Of a DNA stretch of 64,000 bases, positions 1 through 17,340 are shown piece by piece (the first letter of the stretch is position 1; every line of letters begins with the position of its first letter). Position numbers and translations under genes: made by a program. Below the pieces are notes generated by a model that had not been told where the DNA came from, made no database searches, and saw only the letters and a program-made list of their open reading frames with translations. This stretch comes from a virus: positions 1-64,000 of the IMG/VR virus record IMGVR_UViG_3300025030_000051. One strand, given 5' to 3'.

Positions 1-79
1 GTTCAGCTCGGCTCTCTTCGTGGGTCAGTAGATATAATATTGAATAACCAGACTTAATATAAGATGATAAATTTACCAT
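1..79 (-). CDS. N-terminus of a probable Ycf46-like AAA ATPase (runs off window start)
   Basis: Manual translation MVNLSSYIKSGYSILYLLTHEESRAE resembles the Ycf46-family N-terminus; promoter motif directly upstream. Confidence 0.55.
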   Translation of the reverse strand, partial: MVNLSSYIKSGYSILYLLTHEESRAE

Positions 80-115
80 ATTGTAACCTTTATTTCAAAT
101 TATTTTTATTAGTCT

Positions 116-144
116 AATATAAATAATATATAAGTAAAAGTAAA
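116..144 (-). promoter_or_regulatory. sigma70-like early promoter TTTACT-N17-TATATT
   Basis: Same motif and 17-nt spacing recur at 3480-3508, 3592-3620, 5977-6005 and 18814-18842. Confidence 0.65.
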
Positions 145-268
145 TTATATAAAAAAATTAAAAAGAGAAAAAGAAAGCCAAAAACGAAAGAAATTTATTT
201 TTATTACTTATTATCGGTTCTGATCATTCTTACATCTTCTGTTATCAATGTTCTGTAATCTTCACAAA

Positions 269-580
269 TCAATATTTTAATAATACCTCTATTTCTTCAA
301 TTTCTTTTTCAATACTTTTATAAGTAGCTGGGGTTTCATTTCTATCACATTGCAGTAAAAATTTCTTTTTATAGTCACGTAAGAATATTAGTCCCTGGAT
401 TATATACCTATTTCCGCCAGTTACCATTCCGTTAGGGATAACTTTTGTCTGCACCTGATTGCTAATTTTGTCAATCAGTTCAAAAGGGCTATCTAAGTTT
501 TTTATTGGTAAATCTACTTCATAGCTATCAATAAAAATTTGCTTTAGTTGTTCTAATTCTTCTGTCATTATTTTCTCCAA
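269..580 (-). CDS. hypothetical protein containing an attC-like arm
   Basis: ORF track; internal + strand GGATAAC-TTTTG-TCTGCACC at 436-455. Confidence 0.65.
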   Translation of the reverse strand: MEKIMTEELEQLKQIFIDSYEVDLPIKNLDSPFELIDKISNQVQTKVIPNGMVTGGNRYIIQGLIFLRDYKKKFLLQCDRNETPATYKSIEKEIEEIEVLLKY

Positions 581-623
581 ATAAATTTTTTAAATATCTT
601 CCACAACAGGTAAAGCGTTGTGC
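436..623 (+). mobile_element. degenerate attC-like site
   Basis: R'' GGATAAC, 5 nt, TCTGCACCTG ... CAGGTAAAG-C-GTTGTGC R' (spacer shortened). Confidence 0.4.
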
Positions 624-659
624 AATAGTTTTCCAATCACTTATTAGGAAAAATTGCTC

Positions 660-965
660 TCAGATTTTAAGTTTTGATATCGACAATCGGCTTGCATTGT
701 TTATAAACCAATTCCACAATGTTTCAGTAGCTTTGTCTCCATCCATCATCCATTCGTGGTTATCTACCCAACCAAATTCATCAGAAAATATTATCTTTCT
801 AAGTTCTTCTTTCAAGTTGCCGCTTGCTGGTATAACTGACGGTTCAATTTGACCGTTAATATCTTCGTTTCTAATCAAAGAATAATCGAATTGATTATTT
901 AAAATCCATTCTATGGCTTGGTCTCCACTCATATTTGTTAAATCTGTTAAAGGTTTTGATTCCAT
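660..965 (-). CDS. hypothetical protein containing an attC-like arm
   Basis: ORF track; AAGGT RBS-like sequence upstream; NGQIEPSVIP segment encoded by the arm. Confidence 0.7.
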   Translation of the reverse strand: MESKPLTDLTNMSGDQAIEWILNNQFDYSLIRNEDINGQIEPSVIPASGNLKEELRKIIFSDEFGWVDNHEWMMDGDKATETLWNWFINNASRLSISKLKI

Positions 966-1061
966 TTGTTTACCTTATTAATTCTTTTTGTAATCTGGTT
1001 CAGCTATTTCATATAAAATTATTAAATTGACGGTGGCAAGTTAAGCTGTATCACGTTATGC
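830..1061 (+). mobile_element. long attC-like site
   Basis: GTATAAC-TGACG-GTTCAATTTGACCGT ... ACGGTGGCAAGTTAAGCTGTATCAC-GTTATGC; arms are complementary; R' contains the stop codon of the upstream minus-strand gene. Confidence 0.6.
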
Positions 1062-1364
1062 AGAAAAATTGCTTTTAATGTTTTGCATAGCTTCGTTGGC
1101 TTTTTTAATATCGTTTTCTATAAACATAAATTTTTTATCTATTATGTTATTTATTTCTTCTTTTAATTTATCTTTGCCAATAACCATAAATGTAGTAACC
1201 GTTCTAAGGTAGTCATCTGTTTCCGCAATTTTCTGCATAACTTGGGCTTCAACGGGCAAGTTTATAATTTTACTTAGGATAGCTTGTTGGATAGTAAGTC
1301 CGCCGTTTGCAATCCCAACTTGCGGTTCAAGCTGACTGCTGATATGTTTGGCATAATCACTCAT
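1056..1364 (-). CDS. hypothetical protein (start likely ATG 1364, MSDYAKH...) with attC-like arm at 1313-1336
   Basis: Trimming the ORF removes the long overlap with 1357..1659; + strand TCCCAAC-TTGCG-GTTCAAGC-TGAC. Confidence 0.6.
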   Translation of the reverse strand: MSDYAKHISSQLEPQVGIANGGLTIQQAILSKIINLPVEAQVMQKIAETDDYLRTVTTFMVIGKDKLKEEINNIIDKKFMFIENDIKKANEAMQNIKSNFSA

Positions 1365-1659
1365 AAGAGATAAACATTCTTCTGTAAGAACTTGTGGTCT
1401 TGTTTCTATATTCCATAACATACTTTTTTGCTTCTTCTTTAGTGACATTCTTCTCATCCCAATCAAGATAAATTGTCTCCACATTACATTCATCTATCAT
1501 TTGACAAATAATTTCTTTTTGTTCCAGCGTATCGTGTTTTGTCATAGCAGATTTGTATTTTTTAAGCAACTCTACCACTTTGGGTGTGTGCAAGTCCCAT
1601 GCTTTTAACGTCCCCCATTTTAGGATAATAGTATCGTGTTGTTTTGTATTTTCTTCCAT
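1357..1659 (-). CDS. conserved phage hypothetical protein
   Basis: LKWGTLKAW motif; GGAG RBS. Confidence 0.7.
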   Translation of the reverse strand: MEENTKQHDTIILKWGTLKAWDLHTPKVVELLKKYKSAMTKHDTLEQKEIICQMIDECNVETIYLDWDEKNVTKEEAKKYVMEYRNKTTSSYRRMFISYE

Positions 1660-1735
1660 TTACAAATTCTCCTTTCTAAGTATCGCTTAATTATACATAA
1701 TTTTTAACTTTAATTAATATTTCATTTATCTGACA

Positions 1736-2035
1736 CTATCCGTTAATTCTTCTTTGTCTGGTATAATAATTATTCATTATTCTTTTTTTATTTTTATAAT
1801 TTATAAAATTTTGGTTTACTCTTATATACGATTCTTCATCTGTAATGATTTCATTAATTATTTCTGACCTGATATTTATATATATTCCAAAATACAATGA
1901 TTCTAAGCCTTCAATCATTTCATTAATTTCTTTACCCTCTTCTTTCCAAGGATAGGTTTTATTGTTTCTGACCGTAGCAAACAAGATTTTTTTAAGAAAC
2001 AACTTATAATAATTCTCGTTATTAAGCGATTTCAT
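1736..2035 (-). CDS. hypothetical protein
   Basis: ORF track. Confidence 0.55.
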   Translation of the reverse strand: MKSLNNENYYKLFLKKILFATVRNNKTYPWKEEGKEINEMIEGLESLYFGIYINIRSEIINEIITDEESYIRVNQNFINYKNKKRIMNNYYTRQRRING

Positions 2036-2493
2036 AATTATAAAATAAATATTTATTAATAAACAAACAATTTAGTTTTTGGTATAATAATATCATGACA
2101 ATACAACATTTTATACATAACTTTTTAATAACTCTAAGATTTAAATAATAATATTCTAATTTTTTAACTTTATTTAACTGTTTTAATATATATAATTTTT
2201 GCATAAAATGAAAATTTTGCAGAAATATATATAGGAACCGAGTCCCTCTTCATCAAAATTTTCTTTTTTATATTAACAAAGTATTAATTTCTGTTCACTT
2301 TCATTTAACAAGTTTTAGTTATTAAATTAATCCAGAGTCCCTTTTCATAAAAAAACATTTTTTCAAATTACATTTTTTAGTTATTAGAGTTTAAAAAATA
2401 TAAAAACATAAAAAATTGTATATCTTAACCCATATTACATTGACAGTGAAATAAAAATCCCTCAGTTCTTTTAAGATGTCATTTTGTGCCACG

Positions 2494-2700
2494 TTATATA
2501 TCAAATGATTCATCTAATAGATGACTCGGCTCTTCATCATTAAGACCGAGTTCGGTTAGCAGAATAGAAAAAGGCTTAAATATTAAATCATTATATTCTC
2601 TTACAAGAACAACAACATTTTCAAACTGACAGTTCACGGGAAAACTACGAATATATTTATCGTAATTTTCAAGATTCTCTTTTAGTTCTTCAAGTTTCAT
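2494..2700 (-). CDS. hypothetical protein
   Basis: ORF track with ATG and upstream GGGA. Confidence 0.55.
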   Translation of the reverse strand: MKLEELKENLENYDKYIRSFPVNCQFENVVVLVREYNDLIFKPFSILLTELGLNDEEPSHLLDESFDI

Positions 2701-3002
2701 ATTTTTTCCCAGTATAATTAAAATTTAAGTATAAAATTAATAATATTTTCCAGCATAAAGACACTTAACTTGAGATATTTCTATTCATTAGATGACTTCA
2801 GATGCATTTTATAATACAGATGTAGGAATTTAATATATTTCAAAACTAATGTCACCAGTATCATCCAAATAAGCAACTGATGTTCAGTACAAGGCATTCC
2901 TTGATTAAGAATTCTGTATCGTCCATCTATCCTGTAAAATTATTTCTGTTATACTTTGTATTTAAGTAAGTTAACAGTTTAATAAATTTTCCTTCATTAT
3001 TT

Positions 3003-3066
3003 AAAAAGAGGCCCAAAAACTTATTAACAGAAATAGCCGTTTCTATTAATCTAATCGAGCCCCTTT
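3003..3066 (-). terminator. long hairpin followed by U-run (terminator or ncRNA 3' end)
   Basis: AAAGGGGCTCGA/TTGGGCCTCTTT outer stem, ATTAATAGAAA/TTTCTGTTAAT inner stem. Confidence 0.55.
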
Positions 3067-3243
3067 GAGGTTACTCTTCCAAGGAATTTTTTTAATGGAC
3101 ACAGTGATTTCATAGTTATTTTCCAATCTTTTGTTTTTGACTTAACAAACACGTACTTTTTACTTCTTCAAGTAATTTATCAGTAATTATTTAAGTAAAA
3201 GATGGAATAAGAGTACTGTAAAAAGTAGAATAATAATGAATCT

Positions 3244-3447
3244 TCAAGGTTCTGTTATTTTAACTATTTCTGGAGAAGAATTGTGATACCAACAATCAAT
3301 CTTCTCAGTTAAAATATAATCAGCTATTAAACTATCATTATCTTCGTATTTAAACTTATTATCTTCTTCCCATTTTTTAGCTGATTCTATAAGTTCTGAA
3401 TAACTTTTTGTTAATATTAAATTTAATTTCAATATTAATTTTGTCAT
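3244..3447 (-). CDS. hypothetical early protein
   Basis: ORF just downstream of promoter 3480-3508; GGGTGA RBS. Confidence 0.65.
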   Translation of the reverse strand: MTKLILKLNLILTKSYSELIESAKKWEEDNKFKYEDNDSLIADYILTEKIDCWYHNSSPEIVKITEP

Positions 3448-3479
3448 TTCTTCACCCTTTCTATTTTTATGATAGTCTA

Positions 3480-3508
3480 AATATATATAATTTAAGTGTT
3501 AAAGTAAA
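3480..3508 (-). promoter_or_regulatory. sigma70-like early promoter
   Basis: TTTACT-N17-TATATT. Confidence 0.65.
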
Positions 3509-3893
3509 TTGTTATACATCTTCAAAATAATCACGAAAATTTGATAATGATTTAAGTTGCATTAATATTTGATCACTGAATGTCTCATATAATAATAAAT
3601 ACATTTTGTAAAAAAGTAAATAGTTTTTAAAAATATTGTTTTTGTGTATAACAATATCATTGTTTTCACAATCTTGCTCTAGAACATATCTAGTTATTCA
3701 CCAGATGACACTAGTAACATTATTAATGAAAATATGTATAAAATTATATTCCTTTAACACTTGAAGTTCTGGGATGTTTTAACTTTAAAAAAAGAGCATC
3801 TAAGAATAAAGTTCTTTTTTTTAGGGGTATCAAAAAAAATATTCAAAAATGCTCTTACGACAGTTCTGCTGTAACATTAAACTTCTTATCCCT

Positions 3894-4274
3894 TTAGTCA
3901 ATGACCTTCTGCCAGACCTTAGAAAATGGTTTCTTTCTCCTTTGGATGCCTATATAGTATAGGCCCTTAGTAAAAGTTGTCGGTTTGTGATCAATGTAAG
4001 GAAACACTGTATTCTTATCCCAGTATTCAGGAGTCAATTCTTGTAAACCAGTGTGGTTTAAAGTTGCTCCATCTGTACCAACTTCTACAACAAATGAATT
4101 TGTTTCAGGAACCTCATACATTTCATAATCACCGCACAATGCATGTACGTTTCCTGTTTTTTCACTCTTGGCAATAAAACCCTTCTTTATCTTCTTTGCT
4201 CCCTTTGGAAGCTCATCAATTGAAAAGATTTGAACGTCTCCTTGATGTCCTTGCCATTTACCGGTAAATTTCAT
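3894..4274 (-). CDS. conserved phage protein (QGDV...TG.xH family, usual neighbour of DUF6745 genes)
   Basis: GHQGDVQI, SEKTGNVH, DHKP...GLY motifs; GGAG RBS. Confidence 0.7.
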   Translation of the reverse strand: MKFTGKWQGHQGDVQIFSIDELPKGAKKIKKGFIAKSEKTGNVHALCGDYEMYEVPETNSFVVEVGTDGATLNHTGLQELTPEYWDKNTVFPYIDHKPTTFTKGLYYIGIQRRKKPFSKVWQKVID

Positions 4275-4445
4275 TACTTACTCCTTTTTTTAATAACTCA
4301 TGAAATTTTGTTAATTAACTAAAAAGATCTTATTAATAAATATATATATAATTTCTAATAATAAAAAATATTTTTATAAATTTGTTTCTATTTTTAAAAT
4401 TTTCTTTTACGAAGAAATTTGGATTCCTTTTCGGAATAAACAGTA

Positions 4446-4600
4446 GTTATGCAGAAAAATTGCTTTTAATGTTTTGCATAGCTTCGATTATGTTATTTAT
4501 TTCTTCTTTTAATTTGTCTATGTAGTAACAGTTCTAAGATAGTCATCTATTTCCACAATTTTCTGCATAACTTGGGCTTCAACGGGCAAGTTTATAATTT
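4446..4600 (-). pseudogene. degraded duplicate of the 3' part of gene 1056..1364
   Basis: Near identity to 1055-1270 with a 45-nt deletion, an approximately 16-nt deletion and a few substitutions. Confidence 0.85.
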
Positions 4601-4627
4601 CTACTATTGCTTTGGTAAAATTAGATT

Positions 4628-4975
4628 TACTTGATTCCATACTTGATTTCTTACTTGATTTCTTACTTGATTACTTACTTGATTCACTACTTGATTACTT
4701 ACTTGATTCCTTACTTGATTCCATACTTGATTTCTTACTTGATTACTTACTTGATTCACTACTTGATTACTTACTTGATTACTTACTTGATTCACTACTT
4801 GATTACTTACTTGATTCCATACTTGATTTCTTACTTGATTTCTTACTTGATTACTTACTTGATTACTTACTTGATTCCATACTTGATTTCTTACTTGATT
4901 CACTACTTGATTCACTACTTGATTCACTGCTTGATTCCTTGCTTGATTCCATACTTGATTCATTACTTGGCTCAA
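4628..4975 (-). repeat. 12-bp tandem repeat nnnAATCAAGTA x29 encoding (S/R/W/V/M)NQV (ORF 4604..4975)
   Basis: Directly visible; 116 of 123 aa are tetrapeptide units. Confidence 0.95.
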
Positions 4976-4987
4976 ATTTTCTTTACT

Positions 4988-5923
4988 TTAATTTCTTGAA
5001 TGCCACACGTATTTTAATGATTCAGGAACTCCTTCTGGTCTATGATATTTCAGTGCATCCAATACATTAGTAAACGAACTATCACTTGGAATAAGATATC
5101 TAGTCCCAGAAGTTGGACATGTCAGTTTAACCCATGCAAGCGGAACGTTTGATTTTCCAGTAAGATCTGTTTCACCAGGAAAGCTATTTTCTGATTTATA
5201 TAATATACATTCTTCAGTTGAACCATTCTTATGAACAATAGTTTGTTTATCGACTTCCTTGGCGTCCAAGAATTTCATCATAGAACCCTCACCACTGCCT
5301 TCTACGACTTCGTAAATTCCAGCTCGAACATCTTCATTTGTCTCATTTAAAAAATCTTCCTTTGTAAGAGTTTTATTATTAAATTTCTTGAATATCCATT
5401 CTGGCATCGGTCTGCCGTGAATGTAGTATTGTCCATAACCATCTTTCCACTTGATTGCAGGTCCGGTAACACAATGCATTACAGTACCATCACGGTGAAT
5501 CTCAACTGGTCTTTCAATTAAAATGATATCTGTATCGAATTCAATGTCTAAGAAAATGTTAGTGTCTACAGTTTCCCTTAGTTTAAAGTACTTCGGAAAC
5601 TCTTTTTCGGTCAATATACCAAATTCTACAAAAGTATCATAAAACGCATAAAATGATGCCCATCCTACGGTGAGGAATGTTCCGAAATCATAGAATACGT
5701 TTTTCGTCTTAGAAAGCTTGTTGGCCAGTATCTGACCAGATCTTGGACTAATAGTATAGTGAATCTTCGGCATCGGCTTTTTGATTAAGTTGTAGACAAA
5801 TCTTACAACTTTTCTTGCAGCAACTTTGTTTATGGGTTTATATGTGAGATACTTGATGATGTATTCATCCTTTATCACGTCAAGTCGAGCTTTTTGCTCT
5901 TCAGTTAGAGATTGTAGTTTCAT
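4988..5923 (-). CDS. DUF6745-like phage protein (start likely MKLQSL)
   Basis: LTEEQKA..., SP, GWASFYAF, ERP...MHCVTGPAIKWKDGYGQYYIHG, CPTSG.RY motifs. Confidence 0.75.
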   Translation of the reverse strand: MKLQSLTEEQKARLDVIKDEYIIKYLTYKPINKVAARKVVRFVYNLIKKPMPKIHYTISPRSGQILANKLSKTKNVFYDFGTFLTVGWASFYAFYDTFVEFGILTEKEFPKYFKLRETVDTNIFLDIEFDTDIILIERPVEIHRDGTVMHCVTGPAIKWKDGYGQYYIHGRPMPEWIFKKFNNKTLTKEDFLNETNEDVRAGIYEVVEGSGEGSMMKFLDAKEVDKQTIVHKNGSTEECILYKSENSFPGETDLTGKSNVPLAWVKLTCPTSGTRYLIPSDSSFTNVLDALKYHRPEGVPESLKYVWHSRN

Positions 5924-5976
5924 GTTTTTATTCCTTTTTTTATCATCCAAAAATAAAATAAAAAAATAGATAAAAA

Positions 5977-6005
5977 AATATATACAATATATTTGTAAAA
6001 GTAAA
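5977..6005 (-). promoter_or_regulatory. sigma70-like early promoter
   Basis: TTTACT-N17-TATATT upstream of DUF6745-like gene. Confidence 0.65.
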
Positions 6006-16346: not shown

Positions 16347-16929
16347 ATTATATCCTCTTTATTTTTAAATTTTATATGAAAGATGAATATTTTTAGTAAT
16401 AGTATTGTCTACAATAACTCTATTCATATACTTTCTAGCTAAAAATTCACCTAAAAAGAAATTTTGAATCTTTATAAACATTTTTTCTTCAACTTCAGAC
16501 AGTTCTTTTCTTATATCACTTGTTTTTGATTTCATAAATAATGAACATCGGTTATATGATGATGAAAAATAATAACGACGAACTTTATAAAGCCAATCTT
16601 TCGTAAATCATTATTAACACAGCCCGTAATCTTCTTCTGATCTATATAAGTCATCTATTTTTTTTAATGAGTGTGTAAATTTATAATATAAAAAAGCTAT
16701 TGAAACTGATGCTATTATAAATCCAGACAATAGAATAAATTTATGTTTCATTGACTATACCATATTGTAAATATAGTAAATATAGCCCATCCGGCTATCC
16801 CAGGAAATTACTTTTCCCATTCTTTTTTCTTCTTTCATTATTTTTCTCCTTTCAAGTTAAGTATTAGTTCTTAAGAAAAATTGCTTTCAGATTTTGGCTC
16901 GAATCCCAAGTTATCAGTTTGACTTTTGG

Positions 16930-17340
16930 TTATCGTCTTATTAACATATAAGTAATGTTGTTTGCTGTTCCAACTTTCTCTATCCTGTTCGGCACAAGTC
17001 CACTATTCGCAAAATATTGGTTGTCGTTTTCTTCTCTATAAACGATTAACATATATTTGCTGCTCATTTCCATACTAAAATAATTTATATGGTCTGTTAT
17101 TTTTTCATCAACCATTTTAGCGTTAATGTATGCCTGCACCTCTGCTCTACTATCCCAATCTTTACTATCTGTTAAATATTGATCATAGCCCGCCAAAAGC
17201 AAACTAACTTGCGCATCAAGCGGAATACTTTCTTGAGCGGCTAATTCTTTTAGTTTAACAAATGATTCATTGTTAATCAATAATCCAGCTTCACATTCAT
17301 AATTACAAAGTTCAAGTTGTTTAACTATTTCTCGTAACAT
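16930..17340 (-). CDS. hypothetical protein containing an attC-like arm
   Basis: ORF track; SIPLDAQVS encoded by the arm; stop lies in + strand GTTATCG. Confidence 0.65.
   Translation of the reverse strand: MLREIVKQLELCNYECEAGLLINNESFVKLKELAAQESIPLDAQVSLLLAGYDQYLTDSKDWDSRAEVQAYINAKMVDEKITDHINYFSMEMSSKYMLIVYREENDNQYFANSGLVPNRIEKVGTANNITYMLIRR

What the first reader, a model, noticed from the sequence alone, without database searches (positions are those of the whole stretch)
436..1336. Integron attC-like sites overprinted on phage genes, with the genes antisense and starting inside the attC loop
Seen: four small minus-strand genes (269-580, 660-965, 1056-1364, 16930-17340) each carry mid-CDS a + strand R''-5nt-L''-like arm: GGATAAC-TTTTG-TCTGCACC, GTATAAC-TGACG-GTTCAATT, TCCCAAC-TTGCG-GTTCAAGC, AACTAAC-TTGCG-CATCAAGC. 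Three have a complementary L'-R' arm about 190-230 nt away (GTTGTGC 617, GTTATGC 1055, GTTATCC 17391), upstream of the gene's own start, and the R' at 1055 contains the previous gene's stop. Established: attC architecture is RYYYAAC-5-L''...L'-GTTRRRY, but usually under about 150 nt and mostly outside the CDS. Inference: an integrase-less cassette array in a phage, where crossover at R' moves whole genes and crossover at the intragenic R'' would swap N- and C-terminal halves, giving a combinatorial accessory-protein generator. No integrase is in this window.
Basis: partly seen in the sequence, partly recalled or inferred. Interest (0 to 1): 0.75.

Follow-up and report, generated by a model that had tools for sequence, protein, structure and literature searches.

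The report
Stem-closed coding cassettes in phage genes
The "attC-like" strings are not integron sites; they are one end of a conserved, co-varying inverted repeat that brackets a roughly 150-base, highly variable, in-frame coding segment in small phage genes, and N- and C-terminal protein modules have repeatedly been swapped at that boundary.

Summary
The heptamers fit the consensus at 5-6 of 7 positions. The claimed partner arms pair no better than chance. No fold pairs them. The 112.8-kb record, about 63% complete, has no integrase.

The motif is the antisense of a coding junction block, "J" (..SCAA|GTTA..). Its real partner is the gene's own 3' end, "T", which carries the stop codon (..TAAC).

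In 11 cassettes from 7 contigs, J's 3' arm and T form a 13-18 nt inverted repeat closing a whole element of 174-187 nt (281 in one). The 11 are g3 and a degraded copy here, plus L116 (two), L040, L129, L001 (two), L114 and L044/L081. Over eight cassettes, 96 of 104 positions pair in register and 12 carry compensatory changes.

J and T are 95-100% identical between contigs whose flanking N-modules and interiors are unalignable. Several copies are out of frame or untranslated.

Homologues of all four window genes start or stop matching within about 5 residues of J (13 of 18).

How the element works (recombination handle, RNA stem, or unknown enzyme) is unresolved.

This scan had not noted the architecture on other DNA.

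The parts
1056..1364 (-). Gene g3 (102 aa). It carries two junction cores and an intact cassette: short N-part, J left arm + core, 72-nt insert, second core + right arm, payload, then T with the stop.
   Evidence: ORF. Alignment A4 with P0012/P0013. blastn-short against L116/L040.
1317..1340 (-). J left arm + core (coding strand AGCAGTCAGCTTGAACCG-CAAGTT).
   Evidence: 100% identical over 24 nt to L040, 100% over 22 nt to L116b and 96% over 26 nt to L116a, with unrelated flanks.
1245..1316 (-). 72-nt in-frame insert (GIANGG...PVEA) that splits the J block, which is contiguous in L116, L040 and L129. It is bounded by direct repeats of CAAGTT.
   Evidence: In L116a/b, L040 and L129 the two halves abut.
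1224..1241 (-). 5' arm of the inverted repeat (coding strand GTTATGCAGAAAATTGC), the start of the payload (V-M-Q-K-I-A).
   Evidence: the repeat finder pairs 1052-1067 with 1229-1244 at 94% complementarity, 161 nt apart. Register table.
1055..1072 (-). 3' arm, the T element (coding strand GCAATTTTTCTGCATAAC), encoding ..SNFSA plus the TAA stop.
   Evidence: (D14, D17). 100% identical over 20 nt to L116a.
4446..4640 (-). Degraded second copy of the g3 cassette. It has two deletions, one of them frame-breaking, and the same arms at 4554-4571 and 4446-4463. It abuts the 12-nt tandem array.
   Evidence: D10, D17; arms 4445-4458 / 4559-4572, 100% complementary.
16930..17340 (-). Gene g4 (136 aa). 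N-module 1-36 matches phrog_31702, and Bacillus phage proteins share this mini-domain. J lies at residues 37-45, followed by a conserved 91-aa payload.
   Evidence: AF2 model.
17203..17223 (-). J block of g4 (coding strand CCGCTTGATGCGCAAGTTAGT).
   Evidence: PWM score 36.6. 18 of 18 nt identical to the J of an unrelated ORF in L001. Mosaic edges of P0007-P0010 fall here.
16862..16901 (-). T element after g4. It lies 30-70 nt past the stop and is untranslated.
   Evidence: nhmmer E = 1e-7. The 21-mer is shared with 648-668. Frames.
660..965 (-). Gene g2 (101 aa). N-module 1-51 contains a diverged J (831-851). Core residues 52-87 are shared with P0015/P0016. The 3' end is replaced by an out-of-frame T.
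   Evidence: PWM score 23.7.
634..672 (-). T element at the end of g2. It overlaps the TGA stop and is read in another frame than in g3.
   Evidence: E = 2e-7.
269..568 (-). Gene g1 (99 aa from the ATG at 568). N-module residues 1-44 are shared with at least 7 metagenomic proteins that carry other payloads. It has a weak J (QVQTKV, about 430-460), no T and no closing repeat.
   Evidence: AF2 model.

Best explanation
The motifs mark the boundary of a sub-genic coding cassette. Small accessory genes of this AT-rich large phage, and of several unrelated uncultivated phages, are built in four parts: a variable N-terminal module; a junction block J (..SCAA|GTTA-arm); a variable payload; and a tail element T (arm-TAAC) that contains the stop codon.

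J's 3' arm and T are inverted repeats, so the payload is closed by a 13-18 bp stem in single-stranded DNA or in the mRNA. The whole element is 174-187 nt.

I think the conserved arms act at the nucleic-acid level as handles for homology-driven exchange, that is double crossover, gene conversion or copy-choice. This would replace payloads and re-pair them with different N-modules, with CAAGTT as the usual joint, and no integrase would be needed.

Shown: the architecture, its recurrence, the covariation, the near-identity of the arms beside unalignable interiors, the out-of-frame copies, and the protein mosaic edges.

Inferred: that exchange proceeds by general recombination, and why the arms must be complementary.
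For: (1) Mosaic edges. 13 of 18 partial homologues of g1-g4 begin or end their match within 5 aa of J (alignments). P0005 and P0007 have identical payloads from ESIPLD to the end behind different N-modules.

(2) DNA identity limited to the handles. g3 shares with L116a, L116b and L040 only the J segments (22-26 nt, 96-100%) and T (20-25 nt, 96-100%). The neighbouring genes L116a and L116b share only a 47-nt J block (95.7%) and a 20-nt T (listing).

(3) J and T co-occur. T has 4 copies in 112.8 kb, all within about 320 nt downstream (coding direction) of a J core. A scan with the J core alone recovered T in L116 and L040. A scan with T alone recovered a gene with J in L129.

(4) Inverted repeat closing the payload. 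It is found in every canonical cassette, in L001b and L001c, and in L114 and L044/L081. 96 of 104 positions pair in register, against 32-43 when the partner is slid. Twelve cells carry double-sided changes. At least five arm sequences differ, but all run GTTA..TTGC / GCAA..TAAC.

(5) Internal control. None of the 104 J-core hits scoring at most 9 of 13 was a cassette-type gene; these include the large ELEAQVQ|QMQRKEV family.

(6) Nucleic-acid-level conservation. T is out of frame, untranslated or cut by an earlier stop in g2, g4, L116a and L040. J is read in another frame in L001:3211-3231.

(7) The predicted RNA minimum-energy fold contains the terminal stem, 16-21 long-range pairs, in 5 of 5 canonical cassettes.

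(8) g3 has the 47-nt block split by an insert flanked by CAAGTT repeats, as expected from crossover at that core.
Against: - No recombination event was observed directly.
- All relatives are metagenomic. Short-read assemblers can mis-join at 40-47 nt repeats, so some protein mosaics could be chimeric assemblies.
- Homologous exchange needs direct homology, not complementarity between the two ends. The co-varying inverted repeat therefore points to a structure or to a symmetric protein site that this explanation does not require.
- g1 and g2 have no closing repeat, and g4 has only a weak one (76% over 17 nt).
- Breakpoints would also cluster at a domain boundary through selection alone. In the AF2 models J lies at a helix end next to a linker.
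- The number of independent cassettes is small, about 11.
Confidence: 0.5

Rival explanations
1. Long-range RNA stem. J's 3' arm and T pair in the mRNA, holding the in-frame AUG of the payload and the stop codon in one helix. This could control translation, mRNA stability or RNase III processing. The mosaicism would then be a by-product of having conserved sequences at both ends.
For: The stem co-varies, with 12 compensatory cells. It is in the predicted minimum-energy fold in 5 of 5 cassettes. Element length is constant at 174-187 nt. The arms are kept where they are not translated. The stem covers ATG and TAA.
Against: No Rfam family matches at E up to 1. No expression data are available. 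An RNA stem does not by itself explain 95-100% identity of the left half of J, which lies outside the stem, across unrelated phages. It also does not explain the edges of protein homology.
Confidence: 0.2
2. Sites for an unidentified site-specific enzyme (invertase, transposase, or hairpin- or structure-specific nuclease). The inverted arms would be terminal repeats recognised at both ends, as at the Mu G segment, shufflons or MITEs, with the crossover at CAA|GTT.
For: Inverted repeats sit exactly at the joint between constant and variable parts. Hybrid half-sites in g3 (left arm-core-other, then other-core-right arm) look like attL/attR products. The flanks are invariant: SCAA before GTT and mostly G after AAC.
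Against: No tyrosine or serine recombinase and no reverse transcriptase in the record, though it is only about 63% complete. No shared enzyme gene lies next to the cassettes in L116, L129 or L040; only NinG, Mom-like and DUF5131 genes were found. Inverting g3's payload would give a stop after 7 codons (read). The interiors are unrelated, unlike MITEs, and I saw no target-site duplication.
Confidence: 0.15
3. Peptide-level motif only. J would be a linker, helix cap or protease site, and T a C-terminal tag. Breakpoints would cluster there because only chimeras joined at a domain boundary survive.
For: J lies at a helix end or start beside a low-confidence loop in both AF2 models. The [KE]S[NK][FL]S tail and Q[VL]..V recur in diverged homologues.
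Against: Some T and J copies are out of frame or untranslated. The two 'peptides' (VMQKIA and SNFSA-stop) are reverse complements of each other. Synonymous sites are almost invariant across phages of 25-37% GC. The motif is absent from the other 166 ORFs, including the large ones.
Confidence: 0.08
4. Integron-type attC sites (a CALIN) overprinted on phage genes.
For: Clusters of attC sites without an integrase do occur in virulent phages (PMC9892861). Both arm ends carry GTT/AAC heptamers, and the stop codon sits in the ..TAAC box, as in many cassettes (the last point from my own knowledge).
Against: Consensus fit is 5-6 of 7. The L boxes are not complementary and the claimed arms are weaker than the chance median. 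No fold pairs them. There is no GTTRRRY and no hairpin within 190 nt after any T. The real repeat has the opposite polarity to attC and spans 174-187 nt. No IntI is present.
Confidence: 0.03

Closest known systems
Integron gene cassettes / attC sites, including integrase-less attC clusters (CALINs) in phages (Qi et al. 2023, PMC9892861)
   Same: Unrelated coding payloads are bounded by short imperfect inverted repeats whose ends carry GTT / AAC. Structure is conserved more than sequence. The stop codon lies in the ..TAAC box. Arrays occur in phage accessory regions.
   Different: The polarity is reversed (5'-GTTA...TAAC-3' around the ORF). There are no L boxes and no extrahelical-base geometry. 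The element is 174-187 nt and lies inside an ORF, in frame, fusing the payload to an N-terminal module. No IntI is present.
PeSL mobile regulatory cassettes of T4-type phages (Arbiol et al. 2010, PMC2839356; Comeau et al. 2014, PMC4122927)
   Same: Short conserved sequences with a stem-loop recur among small non-essential ORFs in plastic regions. Insertions, deletions and replacements are bounded by them. Exchange is thought to use general recombination.
   Different: PeSLs are intergenic promoter-terminator units that move whole genes. Here the handles are inside coding sequence and move half-genes. Promoter-like sites in 1-5200 are no more frequent than in shuffles.
Invertible segments and shufflons (Mu G / P1 C with Gin/Cin; R64 shufflon with Rci). 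From my own knowledge.
   Same: Inverted repeats placed at the joint between a constant N-terminal part and a variable C-terminal part of a protein.
   Different: Those segments carry alternative C-termini on the opposite strand and lie next to the recombinase gene. Neither feature is seen here (g3 antisense read).
Conserved-motif recombination in T-even adhesins (gp38 glycine-rich motifs, gp37 His boxes; Trojet et al. 2011, PMC3157838)
   Same: Short conserved segments separate hypervariable segments within one gene, so segments are easily interchanged.
   Different: Those motifs are structural parts of one fold in one gene family. Here the same nucleotide block joins unrelated N-modules and payloads, and its two ends are complementary.
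T4 internal proteins with a capsid targeting sequence (PMC3012670)
   Same: A diverse set of small accessory proteins share only a short conserved element next to a variable effector part.
   Different: In T4 the N-terminal peptide is the conserved part and is removed by the head protease. Here the N-modules vary, the conserved element works at the DNA/RNA level, and the motif is absent from other proteins.

Membership tests
Integron attC site | R'' = RYYYAAC at the 5' end and R' = GTTRRRY at the 3' end | tested here: not met
The real inverted repeat reads 5'-GTTA..TAAC-3', the opposite order.
Integron attC site | L''/L' boxes, 5 nt from the R boxes, complementary to each other | tested here: not met
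   The claimed arms give -5.5, -5.2 and -4.2 kcal/mol, from R-box pairs only. This is weaker than the median best-of-window background of -6.05.
Integron attC site | A single strand folds into a hairpin of about 57-141 nt | tested here: not met
   Six DNA folds never pair the claimed arms, and four of six score within one standard deviation of shuffled controls. No hairpin or GTTRRRY lies within 190 nt after any T.
Integron attC site | IntI-type tyrosine recombinase in the element or genome | tested here: not met
   PF00589 gave no match at E up to 1 in the 112.8-kb record, while all 14 control genomes matched. The record is about 63% complete and the host is unknown.
Integron attC site | Recombination with attI by IntI at G|TT | not testable with these tools
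   This is a bench assay.
PeSL-type regulatory cassette | Intergenic sigma-70 promoter plus terminator stem-loop | tested here: not met
   32 promoter-like sites against 32.4 in shuffles, and 2 terminator-like sites against 1.2. J and T lie in or at the end of coding sequence.
PeSL-type regulatory cassette | Conserved short repeats at the edges of replaced segments | tested here: met
Invertible segment / shufflon | Inverted repeats at the junction between constant and variable coding parts | tested here: met
Invertible segment / shufflon | Adjacent invertase (serine or tyrosine recombinase) and an alternative C-terminus on the other strand | tested here: not met
   No PF00239 or PF00589 match. 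No recombinase among the neighbours tested in L116, L129 and L040. The inverted g3 payload stops after 7 codons (read).
MITE / IS-type element | Terminal inverted repeats with a conserved interior and a target-site duplication | tested here: not met
   Terminal repeats are present, but the interiors are unalignable. I saw no duplication in the flanks.
Known structured RNA (Rfam) | Match to a curated covariance model | tested here: not met
   No matches at gathering threshold over 64 kb. None at E up to 1 in window 1-5200 or in L129, L116 and L001. I doubt Rfam holds an attC model, so this does not test attC.

The most novel reading that the evidence does not exclude
A previously undescribed kind of mobile coding unit. 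It would be an element of about 180 nt, in frame and closed by a stem, with boundaries SCAA|GTTA..TTGC ... GCAA..TAAC that supply the stop codon. It would be exchanged between unrelated small genes and between unrelated phages by a structure- or sequence-specific process, acting like an attC-type hairpin with the payload as its variable centre. The result would be a combinatorial generator of two-module accessory proteins.
Probability: 0.3. Interest if true: 0.85.

Novelty: new variant of a known kind. Interest (0 to 1): 0.66.

Why it matters
Phage accessory genes, including many anti-defence genes, evolve mainly by mosaicism, but the sequence features that direct where the joints fall are known for only a few systems.

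This is a compact, recognisable signature. It lets one find exchangeable half-genes directly in sequence, across phages of different GC content and lifestyle.

It also makes a specific question testable: do co-varying inverted repeats inside ORFs promote cassette exchange, or do they regulate expression?

The signature could also be used to harvest a library of about 50-60-residue payload domains, and of the N-modules they are coupled to, for functional screens.

Tried and rejected
- Protein-seeded scans of viral contigs with g2, g3, g4, P0009, P0010 and the N-module alignment found no relatives. P0013 gave only a contig-end fragment.
- GenBank phages: no DNA match to window 1-6000 and no protein match to g1 or g3. 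g4 matched only through its N-terminal mini-domain in Bacillus phages.
- Pfam, PHROGs and Rfam give no function.
- Prohead-protease site idea: rejected, because the motif occurs in no other ORF.
- DGR idea: rejected, because there is no reverse transcriptase.
- An inverted J-like copy beside g4's T scores 11.5 with the PWM, which is within the range of shuffles. It is kept only as a weak closure.
- A resemblance of g1's payload to IPT/TIG repeats in large proteins was judged to be a low-complexity or chance match.
- A possible kinship between the T core (GARAGCAAT) and the 5' part of some J blocks: the 9-mer is not exclusive to these elements, so this is left open.
- A search for a downstream attC-like partner after each T found none.
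- The J block in prokaryote genomes gave no hits. The T 21-mer gave 3 hits, of which only L129 is a cassette gene.
Full report
**Context.** The window is the first 64 kb of a 112.8-kb IMG/VR virus record that CheckV rates about 63% complete. It has about 25% GC, essentially all genes lie on the minus strand, and there is one tRNA. It encodes glycan-synthesis genes, HNH endonucleases and many small ORFs of unknown function. The finding lies in small-ORF clusters at 269-1364 and 16930-17340.

**Checking the observation.**
- The shared + strand core AACTNNNGNNTCAA occurs six times in the record, always on the + strand: at 834, 1239, 1317, 4569, 17206 and 80284. My own base-composition estimate gives about one expected.
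- Read on the coding strand, it encodes [LIV][ED][PA][QS]V. That peptide occurs four times against 0.3 expected among 170 ORFs, and only in these genes.
- The four proteins are otherwise not detectable paralogues.

**The attC test.**
- The heptamers fit RYYYAAC/GTTRRRY at 5-6 of 7 positions.
With DNA parameters, the claimed arm pairs give -5.5, -5.2 and -4.2 kcal/mol. That is weaker than the median best partner (-6.05) found for random AAC-anchored arms.
- Six single-strand DNA folds never pair the claimed arms.
- The record has no tyrosine recombinase, serine recombinase or reverse transcriptase.
- Rfam gives nothing, but I doubt it holds an attC model, so that result says little about attC.
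- Clusters of attC sites without an integrase are already known in virulent phages (PMC9892861). That part of the idea would therefore not have been new in any case.

**A second repeated element.** Repeat finding and profile search showed a 25-40 nt element, T, at the 3' ends of g2 (634-672), g3 (1051-1090), a degraded g3 copy (4440-4481) and g4 (16862-16901). There are no further copies in 112.8 kb.
- In g3, T encodes ..KSNFSA plus the stop.
- In g2, T overlaps the stop in another frame.
- After g4, T is untranslated.

**Homology breaks at the motif.** Searches of large protein collections found partial homologues for all four genes. BLASTP edges fall within 5 residues of the junction in 13 of 18 cases.
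- The 44-residue N-module of g1 is joined to at least seven unrelated C-terminal parts right after Q[VL]..V. Its payload occurs behind other N-termini.
- The payload of g4 occurs behind three different N-termini, and its N-module occurs in front of a different C-terminus. All of these share ESIPLD(A/L)(Q/L)V.
- P0005 and P0007 have identical payloads behind different N-modules.
- g3 relatives have three different N-termini joined at (L/V)E..V-MQKIAE.
- g2 shares only residues 52-87 with its relatives.
- Many of these proteins end in [KE]S[NK][FL]S, which is the T tail.
- The g4 N-module is an independent mini-domain. It is also found in Bacillus phage proteins, at either end of the protein.

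**DNA-level evidence from other contigs.** A metagenome scan gave g4 relatives (L001-L004). In L001 an unrelated ORF (1855-2142) carries the same J core, identical to g4 over 18 nt, and a T-like tail. A position-weight matrix of J found a further copy at L001:3211-3231, read in a different frame (encoding SGGNASY) and lying at a module joint.

The last viral-contig scan used the 16-nt core. Most of its 119 loci were unrelated, but it recovered cassette-type genes in L116 (two), L040, L114, L044/L081 and L111. The T profile then hit only L116 (twice) and L040 among 1.05 Mb. Conversely, a scan of prokaryote genomes with T alone found L129, whose gene has J about 160 nt upstream.

Between g3 and L116a, L116b or L040, and between the neighbours L116a and L116b, blastn-short detects only two things: the J block (up to 47 nt, 95-100%) and T (20-25 nt, 95-100%). 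N-modules and interiors are unalignable (listing). In g3 the block is split by a 72-nt in-frame insert bounded by CAAGTT repeats. This gives left arm-core-other and other-core-right arm.

**The key structural result.** J's 3' arm and T are inverted repeats.
- In g3, the degraded copy, L116a, L116b and L129, GTTATGCAGAAAA pairs with TTTTCTGCATAAC. L040 has a variant of it. With one bulge, the pairing extends through TTGC/GCAA.
- L001b, L001c, L114 and L044/L081 have different arm sequences that are again complementary. All have the form GTTA..TTGC / GCAA..TAAC.
- In register, 96 of 104 positions are Watson-Crick paired, against 32-43 when the partner is slid by 1-3 nt. Twelve cells carry double-sided changes.
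- The whole element measures 174-187 nt in seven intact cassettes and 281 nt in L044/L081.
- The arm contains the payload's in-frame ATG and, on the other side, the TAA stop. This explains why VMQKIA and SNFSA-stop are both conserved: they are reverse complements of each other.
- None of the 104 core hits scoring at most 9 of 13 was a cassette-type gene. These include a large, unrelated ELEAQVQ family.
- The predicted RNA minimum-energy structures include the terminal stem in 5 of 5 cassettes.
- g4 has only a weak closure, and g1 and g2 have none.

**Structure models.** The AF2 models are of modest confidence. In g1, J is the end of a helix followed by a disordered loop, before a confidently predicted helical hairpin. 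In g4, J is a loop plus the start of a helix. J is therefore a module boundary but not one conserved structural element.

**Interpretation.** The data show a cassette architecture defined at the nucleic-acid level, with module swapping at its 5' boundary. I favour homology-guided exchange through the conserved handles (0.5). That explanation does not account for the selected complementarity of the ends. An RNA-level role for the stem (0.2) or an unidentified structure- or site-specific enzyme (0.15) therefore remain serious rivals. A peptide-only motif (0.08) and integron attC (0.03) are largely contradicted.

**Caveats.**
- About 11 cassettes support the architecture.
- All relatives are metagenomic.
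- Assembly chimeras at 40-47 nt repeats could inflate the apparent mosaicism.
- No recombination or expression data could be obtained.

**Comparison with known systems.** The nearest systems are integron cassettes, PeSL cassettes (PMC2839356, PMC4122927), invertible segments and shufflons, gp38 motif-mediated swapping (PMC3157838) and T4 internal proteins (PMC3012670). Each shares one or two features and fails at least one defining feature (see Membership tests).

Two other notes from this scan on the same window were relevant.
- One pointed to the duplicated fragment at 4446-4600. I confirmed that its identity with g3 ends at the T boundary, 2-3 nt past the stop. I read this as the cassette's 3' arm, not as an attC R' box.
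- The other described the tandem xNQV array in frame behind the DUF6745-like gene. I confirmed the shared frame and the Pfam match.

Noticed in passing
window 4543-5046 (array), 4604-4975 and 4988-5950 (ORFs, minus strand): A 12-nt tandem array of about 29 units encodes (x-N-Q-V)n. It lies in the same frame as the upstream 320-aa DUF6745-like gene (30.9 bits, cut-off 27), separated from it by a single TAA. The degraded g3-type cassette abuts its 3' end in another frame. The unit SNQV resembles g1's junction (ISNQVQ).
   Followed up: partly
window 17239-17337 (g4 residues 2-34); L006:913-1377; L007:1192-1794: The g4 N-module (L.EIV.QL..C.Y.CE.G.L.NN..F) is a roughly 35-residue mini-domain (phrog_31702). 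It also occurs in Herelleviridae Bacillus phage proteins, at the N-terminus in Goe26 and near the C-terminus in 015DV004. Its function is unknown.
   Followed up: partly
L116:5699-5730 and L040:13049-13080: Just after T, two contigs share G(C/G)CGATAAGCTG, and several contigs have GC-rich sequence there. This may be a further conserved piece downstream of the cassette.
   Followed up: no
L040:11460-12182 and L114:560-1309: A DUF5131 (Gp37/Gp68-like) gene lies close to the cassette gene in two independent contigs. In L114 it is next to a large terminase-like ORF, a reading from its sequence that I did not test with any family search. There is no evidence of a functional link.
   Followed up: no
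L001:619-804 and L004:202-396 / L002:903-1121: Further small ORFs carry J-like joints. One ends right after ..PVDLQVKP. L004 and L002 share a payload (NFLERSI..IGNPP) behind different N-termini, joined at ..RLEAEVI|NFLERS.
   Followed up: partly
It is unrelated to the cassette arms.
   Followed up: partly
window 1-2000 and 16930-17340: The cassette genes are richer in GC (30-33%; GC3 0.24-0.30) than the genome (25%). The J regions of g1, g3 and g4 are each gene's GC maximum and fall in the top 1% of 45-nt windows. This fits sequence shared with phages of higher GC.
   Followed up: partly
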